Shown here piece after piece: positions 7,528 through 29,237 of a stretch of DNA of 32,000 nucleotides. The stretch spans positions 2,040,001-2,072,000 of the forward strand of contig NC_016803.1 in NCBI RefSeq assembly GCF_000189295.2, given 5' to 3'. Made by a program: the position numbers and the translations under genes. Below the pieces are notes generated by a model. The model saw nothing but the letters and a program-made list of their open reading frames with translations. It was not told where the DNA came from and did no database searches. Within the stretch, counting starts at the first letter, position 1, and every line of letters begins with the position of its first letter. Origin of the DNA: Pseudodesulfovibrio mercurii. Its GTDB lineage: Bacteria; Desulfobacterota; Desulfovibrionia; Desulfovibrionales; Desulfovibrionaceae.

Positions 7528-8826
7528 CTACAGACAGGTGCAGGACCCGCCGGACAGCCGGTCCCAGCGTCCCTGGCGGAAGGCGAGCAGGATCTCCTGC
7601 ACGGTGCGGTCCCGGCAGCCGCGCAGGCACAGGCGGACCGCCTGGTGCCGGAACCCCTCGGCCACACGCCGGGCGTGGGAGCCGTGGGAACGCACCCAGA
7701 CGTCGGCCTCGGGCGCGACGGAGCGGATGCGGCCGTAGGCCTCCTCCCCGCCCAGGCCGCCCAGCTGCGGGGCCGCCACCACCGTGGGACGGGTCAGGGC
7801 CAGGGTCCCGCGCCGCCCCAGGAACGAAAGTTTGGATTCGCCGCACAACAGCGCGCCGCACTCGGCGTCGCCGTAGCGGAAGACCAGGCCGGACGCGGAC
7901 GCCCCCAGCCGCCTTACCGCCTGGAACACGGCCGGGGCCGACACGCGGGCCGGTGCGCCCTCCCCCCGGCCGGGCCGGACCGGATCGGAAACGCCTTCCC
8001 GGCCTTCCGGGACGGGCAGGCCGTTCAGGCACATGACCGGATGCCGGGGCACCAGACGCTCCTCGAGCCGCCCGGTCTGCCGGAACCAGCGCACCCGGAC
8101 CCCGCCCCGGAACAGCAGTCCCTGGACCGCCACGGCCAGGGCCAGGACGCCCGCCATCTCGCGGGCCGCCGCGTGCGTGGACACGGCCAGCCCCTCGGCC
8201 CGGCAGGCCAGCAGCCGGGCGCAAAGCACGGCCCGCGTACCGGGGTCCACGTCAGCGGCGCGGCTCAGGCCGTCCAGGCAGAGGGACAAAAGCTCGCCGC
8301 CCCCCCGGTTCGCGGTCCCGGCCAGGAGCATCTCGGTGACCGAGGCAAAGGCGGACTCCGGCGTGAGGGGCCGGGGCCGGACCGGCAACCGGCCCGTGCA
8401 CGCGGCCGCCCCGAGCAGGGCCATGGTCGCGCCCGCGCTCAGGTCCCCGCCGCCCACCGGAGGCAGGGTGTCGGGCACGGGAAAGGACGCCTCCACGGGC
8501 ACGGGCCAGCCGCAGCGGACCAGCCAGTCCGGGAAGCCGCCGTCGAACGCGCCCGCCGCCCCGGCCAGGTCGAGCAGCCCCTCGGGCAGCCAGTACTCCC
8601 CCACCGGGTAGTCGGCGTCCATGAGATCCAGGATGCCGCCCAGCCGCTCGGGCGACGCGGACGTGCACACCGCCGCCCGAATCCTGCCCACCCGCCGCTC
8701 GCGCAGCAGGCGGGGCAGTCGCCCGGTCAATCCGCCCCCGTCGAAGAGATAGGCACCACGCCGCGTGGACAACAGGCAGGCCTCGCCCCGGTCCACCGGG
8801 AGCACTCTGAATAGCGTCGAATCCAT
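7528..8826 (-). CDS. Hypothetical protein with ComEC-type metallo-beta-lactamase-like pattern but degenerate metal-binding motif
   Basis: ATG at 8826 preceded by AGGAA. Third codon positions are strongly G/C. The N-terminus FRVLPVDRGEACLLSTRRGAYLFDGGG then IRAAVCTSASPERLGGIL resembles the MBL strand-loop and HxHxDH region, but with His/Asp replaced. The family assignment is from memory, not from a search. Confidence 0.7.
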   Translation of the reverse strand: MDSTLFRVLPVDRGEACLLSTRRGAYLFDGGGLTGRLPRLLRERRVGRIRAAVCTSASPERLGGILDLMDADYPVGEYWLPEGLLDLAGAAGAFDGGFPDWLVRCGWPVPVEASFPVPDTLPPVGGGDLSAGATMALLGAAACTGRLPVRPRPLTPESAFASVTEMLLAGTANRGGGELLSLCLDGLSRAADVDPGTRAVLCARLLACRAEGLAVSTHAAAREMAGVLALAVAVQGLLFRGGVRVRWFRQTGRLEERLVPRHPVMCLNGLPVPEGREGVSDPVRPGRGEGAPARVSAPAVFQAVRRLGASASGLVFRYGDAECGALLCGESKLSFLGRRGTLALTRPTVVAAPQLGGLGGEEAYGRIRSVAPEADVWVRSHGSHARRVAEGFRHQAVRLCLRGCRDRTVQEILLAFRQGRWDRLSGGSCTCL

Positions 8827-9063
8827 TTGTTTCCTTGATGAAATGAGATTACCGCCAGAATTTCGATTCCACTATATTCAAAGCGGTTTTCTATATCAAG
8901 AAATAATTTTATGGAAAAAATGCACCCTGCCGCAACAGGCTGTTTTTCCTGGTCTCTCTTTTGACACATGCGAGGAATCGAAAGAGCGATATTCAAACTT
9001 TTCCCATTAATTCAGCATATTGTACGTGACGGGTCCGGGTCTTGCACCGGAAAGACTTAGGCG

Positions 9064-9092
9064 TTGACAAGGTTTTGACCGATCATTATATG
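9064..9092 (+). promoter_or_regulatory. Sigma70-like promoter for the 3D-domain gene
   Basis: TTGACA at 9064-9069, a 16-17 nt spacer, then TTATAT/TATATG at 9086-9092. About 36 nt upstream of the ATG at 9128. Confidence 0.45.
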
Positions 9093-9127
9093 CCTCGGAC
9101 CTGAAAACGACAACGGAGCAATCCTGT

Positions 9128-9619
9128 ATGCGAATACTCTTCAATTACACGATCACCCCGGTCCTGTGCGCGGCCCTGGTGATCATGGCCGTGGTGGTCG
9201 TCGTCAAGCAACAGAAGATCGACGACCTGTCCCACCGCCTGGTACTGGCCCAAAAGACGGCCGAAGCGCGCAAGGTCATGGTCGAGGAGGTCCGCCTCCT
9301 GCAAAAGGCCAAGATGTCCCCGGTTCGCACGGTGACCGTGACCGCCTACAATCCCTCCACCGACCAGTGCGACGACGACCCGCTCATGGCCGCGTCCATG
9401 CGCAAGGTCCGCACCGGCACCATCGCGGTATCCCGCGACCTCTTCGACCAGGGCTGGGTGTTCGGCCGCAAGGTCCGCATCGAGGGCCTCGGCATCTTCG
9501 AGATCAACGACCTCATGAACAAGCGCTATCATCAGCGCATCGACATCTTCATGTGGGACGAATCCCAAGCCCGCGAGTTCGGGCGCAAGAACATCAAGGC
9601 GGCGCTGCTCGATATCTAG
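9128..9619 (+). CDS. Membrane-anchored 3D-domain (MltA/RlpA-like double-psi beta-barrel) protein
   Basis: ATG at 9128 with GGAG 9 nt upstream. An N-terminal TM helix is followed by VTVTAYNPSTDQCDDDP...TGTIAVSRDLF...IEGLGIFEINDLMNKRY...IDIFM, characteristic of 3D-domain proteins. Confidence 0.8.
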   Translation: MRILFNYTITPVLCAALVIMAVVVVVKQQKIDDLSHRLVLAQKTAEARKVMVEEVRLLQKAKMSPVRTVTVTAYNPSTDQCDDDPLMAASMRKVRTGTIAVSRDLFDQGWVFGRKVRIEGLGIFEINDLMNKRYHQRIDIFMWDESQAREFGRKNIKAALLDI

Positions 9620-26529: not shown

Positions 26530-27699
26530 ATGAACCATTTCGACGCCGTCATCCTCGGAGCCGGGGCCTCGGGCCTGTGGTGCGCCATGACCGCCGGGGC
26601 GCGCGGCCGCACGGTCGCGGTCATCGACCACGGGGCCAAGACCGCCCGCAAGGTGCGCGTGTCCGGCGGCGGCAAGTGCAATTTCACCAACCTCGACGTC
26701 TCGCCCGCCCACTACCTGTGCGCCAACCCCCACTTCGTCAAATCCGCCCTGGCCCGGCTGTCGCCCTGGGACGTGGTCGCCTTTCTGGGCGAGCACGGCA
26801 TCAGCTATGAGGAGCGCGACCACGGCCAGCTCTTCACCCTGGAGGGCGCGGGCAAGGTGGCGGGGGCCCTGGCGGAGCGCTGCGGCCGGACGGGCGTGGC
26901 CCTGCTGACCGGCCGGGAGATCGGCGCGGTCTCGGGCGAAGGGCCGTTCACCGTCGAGATGGGCAACGAGACCGTGACCGGCGACAGCCTGGTCCTGGCC
27001 CTGGGCGGCCCGTCCTGGCCCCAGGTCGGGGCCACGGACCTCGGCTTCCGGCTGGCCCGTCAATTCGGGCTGCAACTCACCCCGACCCGGCCCGGCCTGG
27101 TGCCCCTGGTCTTCCCCAAGAAGCTCCAGCCCCTGTGCGCGGACATGGCGGGCAACGCCCTGCCCGCCGCCGTGGAGGCGGGCTCCATGCGCTTTACCGA
27201 CCCCCTGCTCTTCACCCACCGGGGCATCTCCGGCCCGGCCGTGCTCCAGGCGTCGAGCTACTGGCGGGAGAACCGGCCCGTGGCCATCGACTTCCTGCCC
27301 GACCTGGCGCTCACGGATTTTCTGGCGGACAACCGCTCCTCCAACCAGCAGCTGCGCAACCTGCTCGCCCGCGTCCTGCCCAAGCGGCTGCCGCCCCTGC
27401 TCCTGGCCCCGGCCCTGGCCGAGACCCAGGTCAGCCAGCTGTCCAAGGCGCAGACCGAGGCCGCCTGCGAGGCCATCCACCGCTTCACCGTCACCCCGTC
27501 CGGCACCGAGGGCTACGCCAAGGCCGAGGTCACGGTCGGCGGCGTGGACACGGCCCGCATCTCCTCCAAGACCATGGCGGCCCGCGACGTGCCGGGGTTG
27601 TACGTCATCGGGGAGACCCTGGATGTGACCGGCCATCTGGGCGGCTTCAACCTGCACTGGGCGTTTGCGTCGGGGCAGGCATGCGGGGAAGCGATTTAA
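26530..27699 (+). CDS. BaiN/RdsA (HI0933-like) NAD(P)/FAD-dependent oxidoreductase
   Basis: The N-terminal dinucleotide fold is FDAVILGAGASGLWCA. SGGGKCNFTN, GISGPAVLQ and GETLDVTGHLGGFNLHWAFASG are characteristic of the HI0933 family. Confidence 0.9.
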   Translation: MNHFDAVILGAGASGLWCAMTAGARGRTVAVIDHGAKTARKVRVSGGGKCNFTNLDVSPAHYLCANPHFVKSALARLSPWDVVAFLGEHGISYEERDHGQLFTLEGAGKVAGALAERCGRTGVALLTGREIGAVSGEGPFTVEMGNETVTGDSLVLALGGPSWPQVGATDLGFRLARQFGLQLTPTRPGLVPLVFPKKLQPLCADMAGNALPAAVEAGSMRFTDPLLFTHRGISGPAVLQASSYWRENRPVAIDFLPDLALTDFLADNRSSNQQLRNLLARVLPKRLPPLLLAPALAETQVSQLSKAQTEAACEAIHRFTVTPSGTEGYAKAEVTVGGVDTARISSKTMAARDVPGLYVIGETLDVTGHLGGFNLHWAFASGQACGEAI

Positions 27700-27803
27700 C
27701 AGTGGCCTTCGAACGCACCCCAACACAAATCGGGGAGATACGTAATCTGTGTGCTATGAGGCTGTAAAATTCAGGGATAGCTTTTTATACTTGAATAAGT
27801 CTG

Positions 27804-28406
27804 TCACAGCGCAAGTGAAGTAACGACGCCATAAATAAGCATCATAAATCCACACAGCTGGTGCAAAAGTTCTTCTTCAACTGTTTGAGTAATTTTTACT
27901 TCTAAAGATGTACATGTATTTATTATTTTTTTATTTAATTCATCTTTGACTTTCTTTACTTTTCGATCCATATCTTGACCTTGCTCAAACAATTTCGCAT
28001 CAAGCTCGTTGAGCTTATTGTGGATGAAATCTACCCGTTGCTCTAATGTTGTAAAACTAGGTGTAAATAGTGTGTGCATACTGGCACCAATTGTAACACT
28101 TTCGCTTAACTCAATATTGAATATACGACCAGGATGCCATGGAGCCTTTCTCCACCATTCTAAAAACATTCCACCAAGGCTGACCCCTTTGAAGCTATTA
28201 AGGGTGCCATTGATTGTATAGAAGATAATAGCTGCACCACCAACTTGACCTATGAAGGCTATGAACTTGTGGACTAAAGGACGATTGGGCACTTCAACGT
28301 GAAGCCACAGTACAAAGTGAATAAAGCCAATTATGATTAATGTGGCGAGAAAGCGGAGAGGATAGAGCCAGTCCAACCAAGATTGGAGATTTTTAGTGCA
28401 TGACAT
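27804..28406 (-). CDS. Orphan low-GC membrane/coiled-coil protein (200 aa), no recognisable family
   Basis: ATG at 28406 preceded by AGGAGG with a 5-nt spacer. It is the only long ORF in the low-GC segment. Two N-terminal hydrophobic helices (approx. residues 15-35 and 47-66), a charged helical region (approx. 112-178) and a hydrophobic C-terminal tail (LCGFMMLIYGVVTSLAL). Codon usage is AT-rich, unlike every neighbouring gene. Confidence 0.7.
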   Translation of the reverse strand: MSCTKNLQSWLDWLYPLRFLATLIIIGFIHFVLWLHVEVPNRPLVHKFIAFIGQVGGAAIIFYTINGTLNSFKGVSLGGMFLEWWRKAPWHPGRIFNIELSESVTIGASMHTLFTPSFTTLEQRVDFIHNKLNELDAKLFEQGQDMDRKVKKVKDELNKKIINTCTSLEVKITQTVEEELLHQLCGFMMLIYGVVTSLAL

Positions 28407-28545
28407 AGAGGCCTCCTGCTCATGGGGTGTAACTAATGTTTAGGCCCATGGAAACCCAAAAACTAAGAAGGAACCGCAGGACGACTCGACTCCTGTATTT
28501 TCCCTCGCCACATTTCCCGCGTTCAAAAGAACAACCAACCACAAG

Positions 28546-28592
28546 AAAAAACAAACGCCGCCCCATGTGCGATACATGGAGCGGCGTTTTTC
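28546..28592. terminator. Bidirectional rho-independent terminator (serves rdgB on the minus strand)
   Basis: 15-bp stem aacgccgccccatgt / acatggagcggcgtt with 1 mismatch. T5 lies on the plus side and an A-rich run on the left gives a U-tract on the minus strand. Confidence 0.6.
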
Positions 28593-28628
28593 GATATTCA
28601 TCCGCACCCCGGAAGGGCCGGAGAGGGG

Positions 28629-29237
28629 CTACCTGTTGGCCTTCGCCCAAAAGTCCGGCCACTGTTCCAGCAGCTTCCGCATGGCCTTGCCCCGGTGGGA
28701 CTTGGCGTTCTTCACTTCCGGGTCCAGTTCGGCCACGTGCAGTCCCAGCTCGGGGTCGATGACGATGACGTCGTAGCCGAAGCCCCCGCGGCCCTTGTAG
28801 CCGTGGCCGACGGTGATCTCGTAGGTCCCGTCCGCGTGGATCTCCGCGCCGTTGGGGGCGGAGGCGGCCATGACGCAGCGGTAGCGGCCCGTGCGCTTGC
28901 CCTCGGGCACGTCCTGCATCTCGGCCAGCATCTTCTCGTTGTTGTCGTGGTCGTCGTGCTGCTCGCCCGCATAGCGCGCGGAGTACACGCCGGGGCGGCC
29001 GCCCAGGGCATCGACCTCCACGCCCGAGTCGTCGGCCACGGCCACCAGGCCGGTGATCTGGGCCACGGCGCGCGCCTTGATGAAGGCGTTCTCCAGGAAG
29101 GTCTCGCCGGTCTCGGGAATGTCGCCGATCTCCGGAAACTCGGCCAGGCTCTTCACGGCCACGCCGAAGGGCTCGAGCATGACGGACAGCTCCCGAATCT
29201 TGCCCTTGTTGTTGGTCGCCAGAACGATGGTGTCCAT
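28629..29237 (-). CDS. rdgB: dITP/XTP pyrophosphatase (Ham1/RdgB family)
   Basis: ATG at 29237. The family motifs are LATNNKGKIRE, ADDSGVEVDALGGRPGVYSARY, GFGYD and SHRGKA. Confidence 0.9.
   Translation of the reverse strand: MDTIVLATNNKGKIRELSVMLEPFGVAVKSLAEFPEIGDIPETGETFLENAFIKARAVAQITGLVAVADDSGVEVDALGGRPGVYSARYAGEQHDDHDNNEKMLAEMQDVPEGKRTGRYRCVMAASAPNGAEIHADGTYEITVGHGYKGRGGFGYDVIVIDPELGLHVAELDPEVKNAKSHRGKAMRKLLEQWPDFWAKANR

What the first reader, a model, noticed from the sequence alone, without database searches (positions are those of the whole stretch)
27700..28552. Low-GC single-gene island encoding an orphan 200-aa membrane/coiled-coil protein
Directly after the BaiN-like stop codon the composition collapses. 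My hand count over 27841-28380 gives about 38% G+C, with one 60-nt line near 18%. A flanking line at 27601-27660 is about 63%, and composition recovers at the rdgB terminator. The segment holds exactly one convincing gene (27804-28406, minus strand) with a consensus AGGAGG SD and AT-rich codon usage unlike all neighbours. The predicted protein has two N-terminal TM helices and a Trp/Gly-rich juxtamembrane stretch (GGMFLEWWRKAPWHPG). It also has a highly charged helical region (NKLNELDAKLFEQGQDMDRKVKKVKDELNKK...) and a hydrophobic C-terminal tail. I recognise no family. No integrase, transposase, tRNA, flanking direct repeat or partner gene is visible. Small membrane-targeting proteins dropped as isolated foreign genes between housekeeping genes are a common form of abortive-infection or defence effectors, toxins and prophage-derived accessory genes. 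A role of that kind is only a hypothesis here.
Basis: partly seen in the sequence, partly recalled or inferred. Interest (0 to 1): 0.7.

Follow-up and report, generated by a model that had tools for sequence, protein, structure and literature searches.

The report
Foreign membrane-protein gene in swap hotspot
A single AT-rich gene dropped between two housekeeping genes of the mercury-methylating bacterium Pseudodesulfovibrio mercurii ND132 belongs to an undescribed family of about 200-residue membrane proteins that travel with mobile DNA (twice fused to an integrase gene); what they do is still unknown.

Summary
Window 27700-28530 is a low-GC cassette (CDS GC 0.386, GC3 0.36; neighbours GC3 0.87-0.95; z = -6.8) holding one gene, 27804-28406(-), which is DND132_1860 of Pseudodesulfovibrio mercurii ND132.

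"Orphan" is wrong. An exhaustive profile search finds 275 representatives, nearly all about 200 aa, with shared motifs. No Pfam, NCBIfam, PHROG, PADLOC or PDB family matches.

A deep-alignment AlphaFold model is confident (pLDDT 92.7) and has no Foldseek analog. It shows two N-terminal TM helices, a Trp/Pro interfacial helix, an extended segment, and a 79-residue helix running into a C-terminal TM. The stalk is predicted cytoplasmic.

The gene is constrained (dN/dS 0.24). The rdgB/BaiN junction is a swap hot spot: four related genomes carry three different low-GC single-gene cassettes between identical boundaries.

Elsewhere the family sits directly behind DUF6538 tyrosine integrases (twice), in tRNA-linked islands, near R-M, TIR-like and toxin-antitoxin genes, or as a lone insert. 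One lone insert is next to tRNA-Lys in another Pseudodesulfovibrio. No partner gene is conserved, and none was found in phage, plasmid or IMG/VR collections.

The foreign-cargo reading is well supported. The defence or exclusion-effector reading is circumstantial only.

The parts
27700..28530 (.). Variable low-GC cassette (about 830 bp) between the BaiN-like stop codon (27699) and a point about 20 nt past the rdgB terminator
   Evidence: The four-genome alignment loses homology exactly between these points. GC is 0.33-0.48 against about 0.66-0.74 outside.
27804..28406 (-). CDS of DND132_1860, 200 aa, member of an undescribed family of 3-TM plus coiled-coil membrane proteins
   Evidence: 100% match to P0001. 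dN/dS is 0.24 against the L001 ortholog. Family HMM score is 164.6 bits. The family has 275 representatives.
28412..28417 (-). Shine-Dalgarno AGGAGG, 5 nt before the ATG
   Evidence: Read directly from the sequence. Invariant in ND132, L001 and L004.
28407..28481 (-). Conserved 5' leader or promoter block (TTkGGTTyyCATGGG ... GTTAyACmCyATGAryAGGAGGC)
   Evidence: 72% identity between ND132 and L004 over 75 nt, against 44.5% at third codon positions and 63% over the CDS. The predicted anti-SD hairpin is not significant.
28299..28364 (-). TM helix 1 (residues 15-36) with family-conserved His30, preceded by the W10 / [W]P15-16 amphipathic motif
   Evidence: AlphaFold helix 15-36. Hydropathy and conservation (H30 87%, W10 91%).
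28209..28265 (-). TM helix 2 (residues 48-66) with the Q54..G57-G58 motif
   Evidence: Q54 and G57 are each 97% conserved. AlphaFold helix 39-73.
28140..28178 (-). Interfacial Trp/Pro helix (residues 77-89, LGGMFLEWWRKAP; family motif W...FP)
   Evidence: W84 is 61% conserved (plus 27% Y) and P89 is 93%. AlphaFold helix 77-86.
27867..28046 (-). Cytoplasmic coiled-coil stalk (residues 121-180)
   Evidence: The hydrophobic seam at 121/125/128/132/135/139/146/150/153/157/161/168/172/177/180 is 0.6-1.0 conserved, mostly 0.9-1.0. It is part of a single helix 121-199 with pLDDT 91-98.
27810..27866 (-). C-terminal TM helix 3 (residues 181-199), continuous with the stalk; motif Q183.FG186.....YG193
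   Evidence: G186 99%, G193 91%, Y192 83%, Q183 77%. The C-terminal tail is uncharged.
28553..28589 (-). rdgB intrinsic terminator; conserved left border of the hot spot
   Evidence: 16-bp stem followed by a T-run. Conserved in ND132, L001, L005 and L008.
26530..27699 (+). Flanking core gene: HI0933-like (BaiN-like) flavoprotein; right border of the hot spot
   Evidence: Pfam HI0933_like on the L001 ortholog. 83.5% aa identity to L001.
28629..29237 (-). Flanking core gene: rdgB/Ham1-like NTP pyrophosphatase
   Evidence: Pfam Ham1p_like on the L001 ortholog. 91% aa identity to L001, L005 and L008.

Best explanation
What is shown. Window 27700-28530 is a horizontally acquired single-gene cassette in a recombination hot spot between two core genes, rdgB and the HI0933/BaiN-like gene. 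Its gene, DND132_1860, is a functional, selectively constrained member of an undescribed family of about 200-residue inner-membrane proteins. That family moves as stand-alone cargo of integrative elements.

What is predicted with good support. The N-terminus is cytoplasmic. A TM1-TM2 hairpin carries conserved His30, Gln54 and a GG motif. An interfacial Trp/Pro helix follows. An extended segment and a roughly 60-residue heptad helix then form a cytoplasmic stalk, and that helix continues without a break into a C-terminal TM helix carrying Q183, G186, Y192 and G193.

What is inferred. The conserved a/d seam and the 7-residue spacing of the glycines suggest that several copies assemble through the stalk. 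The C-terminal TM helices would then form a central membrane bundle surrounded by the TM1-TM2 hairpins. That is the layout of a small gated pore or membrane-perturbing assembly.

Most likely role. Given the integrase-coupled and island contexts, the most likely role is one that benefits the mobile element or its host in genetic conflicts, such as superinfection or entry exclusion, or abortive-infection-type membrane permeabilisation. The protein would act alone, kept at a low level by very poor codon adaptation and possibly by its conserved leader.

Confidence by part. Foreign cargo and new family: about 0.9. Topology and oligomeric stalk: about 0.6. Conflict or exclusion effector role: about 0.3-0.35.
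For: Foreign origin. GC3 is 0.36 against 0.87-0.95 and Fop is 0.22 against 0.71-0.81. Third-position W->S and S->W changes are balanced, so there is no amelioration.

Hot spot. The boundaries are identical in four genomes, but the contents are three unrelated low-GC genes.

Real gene. dN/dS is 0.24.

Family. There are 275 representatives, 49 at E<=1e-10, aligned over their full length, with near-invariant W10, Q54, G57, P89, G186 and G193.

Structure. pLDDT is 92.7 and pTM is 0.67. Positive-inside counts over 106 sequences are: N-terminus K+R 3.4 against D+E 0.6, loop 1.25 against 1.27, residues 67-95 5.2 against 1.6.

Mobility.
- The family gene lies directly after a DUF6538+Phage_integrase gene in L088 (79-nt gap).
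- In L101 the stop and start overlap (TAATG), and the integrase is preceded by tRNA-Pro. The two integrases are 25% identical and the two family genes 28% identical, so the linkage is old.
- L087 is a lower-GC island at tRNA-His holding a type I R-M system and a PDC-S19-like gene.
- L093 has pRha, Bro-N, a resolvase and HP1_ORF34.
- The P0159 contigs have HTH_3, DnaB and HTH_17.
- L098 has RES and HI1420-type TA genes.
- L088 has a TIR-effector-like neighbour.
- A distant member, P0027, is again a lone low-GC gene, 283 nt after tRNA-Lys in another Pseudodesulfovibrio genome.

Stand-alone. No neighbour is shared between contexts.
Against: No functional evidence of any kind exists, and there is no literature on the gene. 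PADLOC, PHROGs, Pfam, NCBIfam and PDB give only coiled-coil noise. Foldseek finds no analog, so the pore-like reading rests on architecture alone. The oligomeric state was not modelled.

No relative was found in 50,697 phage records, 72,556 plasmids, or in four IMG/VR scans. One further profile scan failed technically.

Several members are lone inserts with no mobile or defence neighbours: ND132/L001, L090, L095 and L099. The other cassettes in the same hot spot are secreted or envelope-type proteins (PEP-CTERM-like, TPR-like), not defence genes. Only about 11 contexts were sampled and no enrichment statistic was computed.
Confidence: 0.4

Rival explanations
1. An accessory envelope or membrane-organisation protein with no conflict role, for example a membrane scaffold, a stress-response protein or an anchor. 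It would be carried on islands simply as niche-adaptive cargo, like the secreted PEP-CTERM-like and TPR-like proteins that occupy the same hot spot in sister species.
For: The hot spot's other cassettes are envelope or secreted proteins. PEP-CTERM proteins lie next to family members in L004 and L093. Several members are lone inserts among housekeeping genes. There is no PADLOC match.
Against: Two deeply diverged members are coupled to an integrase, one translationally, which points to a function tied to the element itself. The distribution is rare and patchy. Codon adaptation is extremely poor and there is no amelioration.
Confidence: 0.25
2. A core function of a class of DUF6538-integrase elements: a membrane protein serving the element's own life cycle, such as element-specific entry exclusion, membrane tethering for transfer, or an addiction function. 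On this view the lone copies, including the ND132 one, are remnants left after the rest of the element decayed.
For: The integrase-family gene pair is conserved at 25-28% identity in L088 and L101, with a stop/start overlap in L101. Islands bordered by tRNA genes support integration. L099 looks like a minimal remnant next to tRNA-Lys.
Against: Only 2 of about 11 contexts show the pairing. ND132 and L001 have no integrase trace, no att repeats and no tRNA. The lone copies are still under purifying selection, so they function without the element.
Confidence: 0.15
3. A lysis-module relic: a holin, antiholin or XhlA-like membrane protein from a decayed prophage.
For: The C-terminal half (coiled coil plus terminal TM) resembles the XhlA architecture. 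There are weak hits to PF10779 XhlA (E 3.1), to phrog_937 'hemolysin' in 3 of 106 members, and to one Rz-like spanin. L093 and L101 contain phage-type genes (pRha, Bro-N, HP1_ORF34).
Against: All hits are below threshold and limited to the coiled coil. No endolysin, spanin or structural phage gene is adjacent in any context. There are no relatives in phage genomes or IMG/VR. The conserved N-terminal 2-TM module is absent from XhlA.
Confidence: 0.07
4. Not foreign: a native, vertically inherited gene whose AT-richness is maintained by selection. The variable junction would then reflect lineage-specific loss.
For: ND132 and L001 share the same junctions and have homologous non-coding arms. No mobility gene is nearby.
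Against: Unrelated low-GC genes occupy the same site in two sister species. The nearest other homolog is in a 44%-GC contig with a different context. dS is 3-4 times that of the flanks. The family is found in integrase- and tRNA-linked islands elsewhere.
Confidence: 0.04
5. A spurious or decaying ORF with no function.
For: Very poor codon adaptation. No expression data were found.
Against: dN/dS is 0.24 with dS 0.92. The full-length reading frame is kept in 275 clusters with conserved motifs. The AlphaFold model is confident. The SD and leader are conserved.
Confidence: 0.02

Closest known systems
Prophage- or island-encoded single-gene membrane proteins that mediate superinfection exclusion or abortive infection (for example lambda/P22 SieB, and the integrase-proximal defence genes of temperate mycobacteriophages). 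This comparison rests on my own knowledge, not on a tool result.
   Same: A small stand-alone inner-membrane protein. It is placed next to the integrase or repressor end of integrative elements. It has no partner gene, a patchy distribution and foreign composition.
   Different: There is no sequence or fold similarity to any such protein in Pfam, PHROGs, PADLOC or BFVD. It has not been found in any sequenced phage. Function is untested.
ZorA (Zorya) and other MotA/ExbB-type stators with a long cytoplasmic coiled-coil tail
   Same: TM helices plus a long cytoplasmic helical stalk. A few members give weak ZorA hits.
   Different: The hits cover only the coiled coil (query residues 119-180 against ZorA 395-456) and are far below the cutoff (11.6 against 190 bits). 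There is no MotA/ExbB TM domain and no ZorB-like partner. The protein is 200 aa rather than more than 600.
XhlA (PF10779 / phrog_937) phage lysis-associated 'hemolysin'
   Same: A coiled coil followed by a C-terminal TM anchor.
   Different: E is 3.1 (8.5 bits against a cutoff of 34.7). Only 3 of 106 members give weak PHROG hits. XhlA lacks the conserved N-terminal 2-TM and W..FP module. No lysis genes are nearby.
SlyX / COG2900 'uncharacterized coiled-coil protein' (the JGI annotation of the ortholog P0002)
   Same: A heptad-repeat segment.
   Different: PF04102 gives E 0.069 and 14.2 bits against a cutoff of 30. SlyX is a soluble protein of about 70 aa. The annotation is a coiled-coil artefact.
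CorA-type channels, where a stalk helix continues into the pore-lining TM helix. This is an architectural analogy from my own knowledge.
   Same: A long cytoplasmic helix runs without a break into a TM helix bearing conserved small and polar residues.
   Different: There is no sequence or Foldseek similarity. The TM order and size differ. The oligomeric state here is unknown.
Genomic islets or 'flexible gene' hot spots between conserved core genes, and integron-like single-gene cassettes
   Same: The core-gene borders are identical, with different single foreign genes of 0.8-1.2 kb in each genome.
   Different: No attC-like inverted repeat, integrase or array is present. The insertion mechanism is unknown.

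Membership tests
Undescribed family defined here (275 representatives of about 200 aa) | Full-length match to the family profile, including the W10/WP motif, H30, Q54-x2-GG, W84...P89, T120-x-EE and G186...YG193 | tested here: met
   Family HMM 164.6 bits, E 2.5e-50. Motif residues are present except that Y15 replaces W, HK replaces NK at 46-47, and E178-E179 replace GG.
Undescribed family defined here (275 representatives of about 200 aa) | Stand-alone gene with no conserved partner | tested here: met
   All-against-all BLAST of ORFs within +/-4 kb in 9 family contexts (plus the L005 and L008 hot-spot loci) shows that only the family gene itself is shared.
SlyX (PF04102 / COG2900) | Score above the Pfam gathering threshold | tested here: not met
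   14.2 bits against a cutoff of 30, E 0.069, coiled-coil region only.
XhlA hemolysin/lysis protein (PF10779, phrog_937) | Profile match, and location in a lysis cassette with a holin and endolysin | tested here: not met
   8.5 bits against a cutoff of 34.7. 3 of 106 members give weak phrog_937 hits. No lysis genes occur in any of 11 contexts.
ZorA / Zorya | MotA/ExbB-type TM domain plus an adjacent ZorB | tested here: not met
   NF033914 gives 11.6 bits against a cutoff of 190, tail region only. No partner gene.
Any PADLOC-DB v2 defence protein | Significant match to a defence-system HMM outside the coiled-coil region | tested here: not met
   0 families for the ND132 protein. Family-wide hits are to the SMC-like or coiled-coil models LmuB, JetC and ZorA only.
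2-TM effector modules of signalling defence systems (SLATT, S-2TMbeta, Cap15-like) | Pfam SLATT or S_2TMBeta match and a neighbouring cyclase, TIR or SMODS sensor | tested here: not met
   No such Pfam hit in 106 members. A TIR-like neighbour occurs in only one context, L088.
Superinfection-exclusion / abortive-infection membrane proteins (a functional class) | Blocks phage or mobile-element entry, or kills the infected cell | not testable with these tools
   This needs an expression and challenge experiment. Only context evidence is available.
Integron gene cassette | attC recombination site (imperfect inverted repeat with GTTRRRY cores) at the 3' end of the cassette, plus an array or intI | tested here: inconclusive
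   No attC-like inverted repeat in 27600-28700 and no integrase in the window. A single GTTAAAT at the BaiN stop is at chance level. No dedicated attC model was available.
tRNA-targeting integrative island | Integrase, tRNA and att direct repeats at the ND132 locus | tested here: not met
   No tRNA, no integrase and no repeats at the ND132 locus. These features are met for other family members in L101, L087 and L099.

The most novel reading that the evidence does not exclude
DND132_1860 is the only cultured-isolate representative found here's look-ups of a new class of single-protein membrane effectors with a fold that has no known analog. In this reading the protein is an oligomeric, stalk-gated pore. 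DUF6538-type integrative elements and genomic islets carry it to exclude competing phages or mobile elements, or to abort infection. It would be a new one-gene defence or exclusion system that current catalogues (PADLOC, PHROGs, Pfam) miss.
Probability: 0.25. Interest if true: 0.75.

Novelty: new variant of a known kind. Interest (0 to 1): 0.5.

Why it matters
A conserved and confidently modelled membrane-protein family has no Pfam, PDB or defence-catalogue entry, and it recurs next to integrases and in tRNA-linked islands. That makes it a good candidate for a missing piece of mobile-element biology, whether exclusion, abortive infection or element maintenance.

Among the look-ups made here, only ND132 is a cultured isolate that carries it. 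ND132 is the genetically tractable model for mercury methylation, so deletion and induction experiments are feasible right away.

The locus is also a clean example of a cassette-swapping hot spot with sharp borders in a high-GC sulfate reducer. Four genomes carry three different AT-rich single genes there, with no recombinase and no sign of amelioration. This raises a mechanistic question: how are such cassettes exchanged, and why do they stay AT-rich? If the protein turns out to be a plain accessory envelope protein, the finding is an ordinary case of horizontal gene transfer.

Tried and rejected
1. Single-sequence scans of Pfam, PADLOC, PHROGs and NCBIfam gave only sub-threshold coiled-coil hits: SlyX, XhlA, Baculo_PEP_C and the ZorA tail.

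2. Family-wide scans of 106 members gave the same noise: apolipoproteins, Mu Gam, LmuB, JetC.

3. A profile search of PDB sequences returned only coiled coils such as GCN4, HA2, tropomyosin and apolipoproteins.

4. The AlphaFold run on a 3-sequence alignment was poor (pLDDT 53.5). It was replaced by the 106-sequence run.

5. Foldseek against PDB and BFVD found no match with E<=0.001.

6. IMG/VR scans with the close-homolog profile and with three individual members were all negative. The scan with the wide alignment failed because it had no conserved 7-mer.

7. tblastn of a central member against the phage and plasmid collections found no match.

8. The word-indexed search with the family alignment recovered only 6 proteins and added nothing.

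9. The leader RNA was tested as follows. Rfam gave only a sub-threshold ctRNA hit on the rdgB terminator (E 0.23). RNAalifold predicts an anti-SD hairpin but with almost no covariation across 3 sequences. Stability z-scores are -1.0, -2.3 and -0.3, so the result is inconclusive. The sigma-70 scan found no promoter in the leader.

10. A possible 9-codon uORF is conserved in ND132 and L004 but out of frame in L001, so I rejected it as a conserved feature.

11. For flanking repeats or att sites, only 10-11-nt matches at chance level were found.

12. Literature and supplement searches for DND132_1860 found nothing.

13. The M2-like HxxxW motif (H30...W34) was rejected because W34 is not conserved in the family.

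14. The second low-GC trough in the window (8800-9130) is an intergenic region, not another cassette.
Full report

Yes. The window is from Pseudodesulfovibrio mercurii ND132, and the ORF is DND132_1860 (100% identity to P0001).

- GC of 27841-28380 is 0.383.
- The line 27901-27960 is 0.183.
- The line 27601-27660 is 0.633.

The 603-nt CDS (27804-28406, minus strand) has GC 0.386. That is 6.8 sd below the other 600-nt windows of the 32-kb window. Its GC3 is 0.358, against 0.87-0.95 for five neighbours. Only 22% of its codons are the host's preferred ones, against 71-81% for the neighbours. An AGGAGG lies 5 nt before the ATG. The window has no tRNA, no integrase or transposase trace, no second copy of the gene, and no flanking repeats above chance.

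**2. Is it a real gene?**

Yes. A 64%-identical ortholog (P0002) occurs in metagenome contigs L001-L003. Between the two, dN/dS is 0.24 with dS 0.92, which indicates clear purifying selection.

**3. It is not an orphan.**

The word-indexed search of 5.8 billion clusters found only three relatives. An exhaustive HMMER profile search of 1.84 billion representatives found 275 proteins at E<=1e-3, 49 of them at E<=1e-10. Nearly all are 180-240 aa and aligned end to end.

A 106-sequence alignment shows these conserved features:
- W10 (91%) and a W/P pair at 15-16.
- H30 (87%) in TM1.
- N46-K47.
- Q54 and G57 (97% each), followed by G58, in TM2.
- N68.
- W84 and P89 (93%).
- T120-x-E-E.
- A heptad seam from residue 121 to 184.
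- Q183, G186 (99%), Y192 and G193 (91%) in the C-terminal TM.

No Pfam, NCBIfam, PHROG or PADLOC model and no PDB sequence matches anything except the coiled coil. This holds for the ND132 protein and for all 106 members scanned. The JGI label 'SlyX' for P0002 is a coiled-coil artefact (14.2 bits against a cutoff of 30).

**4. Structure and topology.**

With three sequences AlphaFold failed (pLDDT 53.5). With 106 sequences it gave pLDDT 92.7 and pTM 0.67. The model has:
- helix 2-13,
- TM1 (15-36),
- TM2 with an extension (39-73),
- a short Trp/Pro helix (77-86),
- an extended segment (87-120),
- one unbroken helix (121-199) that contains the coiled coil and the C-terminal TM.

Foldseek found no analog in PDB or BFVD. 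The best E-values were 8.8 and 0.74.

Charge counts over the family are:
- N-terminus: K+R 3.4 against D+E 0.6.
- TM1-TM2 loop: 1.25 against 1.27.
- Residues 67-95: 5.2 against 1.6.
- C-terminal tail: uncharged.

By the positive-inside rule this places the N-terminus and the roughly 110-residue stalk in the cytoplasm and the C-terminus outside.

The a/d seam is 0.9-1.0 hydrophobic at most positions and runs straight into TM3. The conserved glycines in TM3 are 7 residues apart. I infer, but have not shown, that several subunits assemble through the stalk. TM3 would then form a central bundle and the TM1-TM2 hairpins would sit at the periphery.

**5. The locus is a cassette-swap hot spot.**

I fetched rdgB loci from GTDB species genomes. 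The rdgB-BaiN adjacency exists in ND132, in L001/L002, in Desulfovibrio caledoniensis (L005) and in P. karagichevae (L008). Flanking proteins are 83-95% identical among them.

All four share the rdgB terminator and about 20 nt beyond it. Homology then stops and resumes exactly at the BaiN stop codon. The contents between these points differ:
- ND132 and L001 carry the family gene.
- L005 carries a low-GC (0.32-0.40) 217-aa signal-peptide protein with a PEP-CTERM-like tail.
- L008 carries a low-GC 181-aa TPR-like signal-peptide protein, a duplicated 150-nt BaiN 3' fragment, and purT.

No genome with an empty junction was seen. More distant relatives (L006-L012) have different synteny and no GC trough.

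**6. How did it get there?**

ND132 and L001 share both junctions and have homologous non-coding arms. That argues for one ancestral insertion, or for exchange of the whole cassette through the flanks.

However, dS (0.92) is 3-4 times that of the flanks (0.20-0.35). Third-position changes polarised with L004 are balanced (W->S 12-13, S->W 12-15). GC3 stays at 0.36-0.38 in genomes whose own GC3 is about 0.94. So the divergence did not accumulate under the host's mutational regime, or else AT-richness is selected. This remains unexplained. Note that the outgroup is nearly saturated, so the polarisation is rough.

The 75 nt upstream of the ATG are more conserved between ND132 and the 44%-GC contig L004 (72%) than the CDS is (63%; third positions 44.5%). 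The leader therefore travels with the gene. An anti-SD hairpin is predicted there but is not statistically supported.

**7. Where else does the family live?**

I sampled eleven independent contexts.

Mobile or defence hallmarks occur in seven:
- L101: tRNA-Pro, then a DUF6538+Phage_integrase gene, then the family gene with a TAATG stop/start overlap, followed by pRha, a resolvase and HicB.
- L088/L089: the same integrase type 79 nt upstream, more recombinases, and a TIR-effector-like protein 440 nt away.
- L087: a roughly 15-kb lower-GC island beginning at tRNA-His, with a type I R-M system and a PDC-S19-like Schlafen/AlbA gene.
- L093/L094: pRha, Bro-N, a resolvase and HP1_ORF34.
- The P0159 contigs: HTH_3, DnaB_C and HTH_17.
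- L098: RES and HI1420-type toxin-antitoxin genes.
- L099: a lone low-GC copy (GC 0.43, GC3 0.44, against 0.93-0.94 for neighbours) 283 nt after tRNA-Lys in another Pseudodesulfovibrio genome.

Lone inserts among housekeeping genes account for three contexts: ND132/L001, L090-L092 (pyrF / DUF1800) and L095-L097 (pfkB). L004/L085 is too short to judge.

The two integrases are 25% identical and their linked family genes 28% identical, so that linkage is old. No neighbour is shared across contexts.

Against a phage origin, there were no relatives in four IMG/VR scans or in the GenBank phage and PLSDB plasmid collections.

**8. Most likely mechanism.**

Shown: this is a foreign, selectively constrained, stand-alone membrane-protein gene of a new family that moves with integrative elements.

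Predicted: a 3-TM topology with a cytoplasmic hairpin stalk.

Inferred: an oligomer whose stalk-continuous TM3 helices form a central bundle, giving a small gated pore or membrane-perturbing device. Elements would use it for exclusion, abortive infection or their own maintenance. Very poor codon adaptation, and perhaps the conserved leader, would keep expression low.

I rate the conflict-effector role at about 0.3-0.35. The rivals and their weights are:
- a plain accessory envelope protein (0.25),
- an element life-cycle function (0.15),
- a lysis relic (0.07),
- a native gene (0.04),
- a spurious ORF (0.02).

**9. Comparison with known systems, and novelty.**

The phenomenon is known: a foreign single-gene islet in a hot spot, encoding an island-borne small membrane protein. 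The protein family and its predicted fold are not described in any library searched here. The integrase-coupled arrangement and the non-ameliorating cassette exchange are unusual.

I therefore rate it a new variant of a known kind, with interest 0.5. It is ordinary as a case of horizontal transfer. It is promising as an uncatalogued mobile-element membrane effector that can be tested directly in a tractable isolate.

Noticed in passing
window 8800-9130: A second AT-rich trough (GC 0.38-0.46) lies between the divergent ORFs 7528-8826(-) and 9128-9619(+). It has no convincing ORF and is probably a divergent promoter region.
   Followed up: partly
L008 6934-8371 (P. karagichevae): The hot spot holds a duplicated 150-nt fragment of the BaiN 3' end (74% aa identity to ND132 BaiN residues 340-389). 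It is followed by a complete purT-like gene of intermediate GC, before the intact BaiN gene. This looks like the scar of an earlier insertion or recombination.
   Followed up: partly
L005 5895-6548(-); L004 10-225; L093 2075-2710 and 12954-13574: The alternative cassette in D. caledoniensis encodes a low-GC signal-peptide protein with a PEP-CTERM-like tail (E 1.4e-3, just under the cutoff). True PEP-CTERM proteins also lie next to family members in two unrelated contigs. This could be coincidence or a shared donor pool.
   Followed up: partly
window 28423-28452 (-) and L004 about 646-675: A possible 9-codon upstream ORF, MGLNISYTP* in ND132 and MGSNIRYTP* in L004, ends just before the SD. The frame is broken by a 1-nt indel in L001, so it is probably not a conserved uORF.
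   Followed up: partly
window 28407-28470 (-): A predicted leader hairpin pairs a conserved GGUUUCC block with the SD GGAGGCC. There are only three sequences, almost no covariation, and z-scores of -1.0, -2.3 and -0.3.
   Followed up: yes
L088 3498-4406(-): A 302-aa protein with a C-terminal match to a PADLOC TIR effector model (E 7.8e-9) lies 440 nt from the family gene, in an element rich in tyrosine and serine recombinases.
   Followed up: no
L087 3600-19200: A roughly 15-kb lower-GC island (0.43-0.57 against 0.61) starts at tRNA-His. It carries the family gene, several proteins with no Pfam hit, a type I R-M system and a Schlafen/AlbA protein that matches the candidate defence family PDC-S19.
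   Followed up: partly
L002 11772-12452(-): An IS1595-family DDE transposase lies just beyond the xth-like gene in one metagenome variant of the syntenic locus. It is absent from the ND132 window.
   Followed up: partly
window 27698-27707 and 28657-28666: A perfect 10-nt inverted repeat (AACAGTGGCC / GGCCACTGTT) brackets the cassette, at the BaiN stop and inside the rdgB 3' coding end. About 0.6 such pairs are expected by chance (my estimate) in 1.1 kb, and it is not conserved in L001.
   Followed up: yes
window 28541-28614 (-): A sub-threshold Rfam hit to ctRNA_pGA1 (20.6 bits against a gathering score of 45, E 0.23) coincides with the rdgB terminator hairpin. It is almost certainly just the terminator.
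   Followed up: yes
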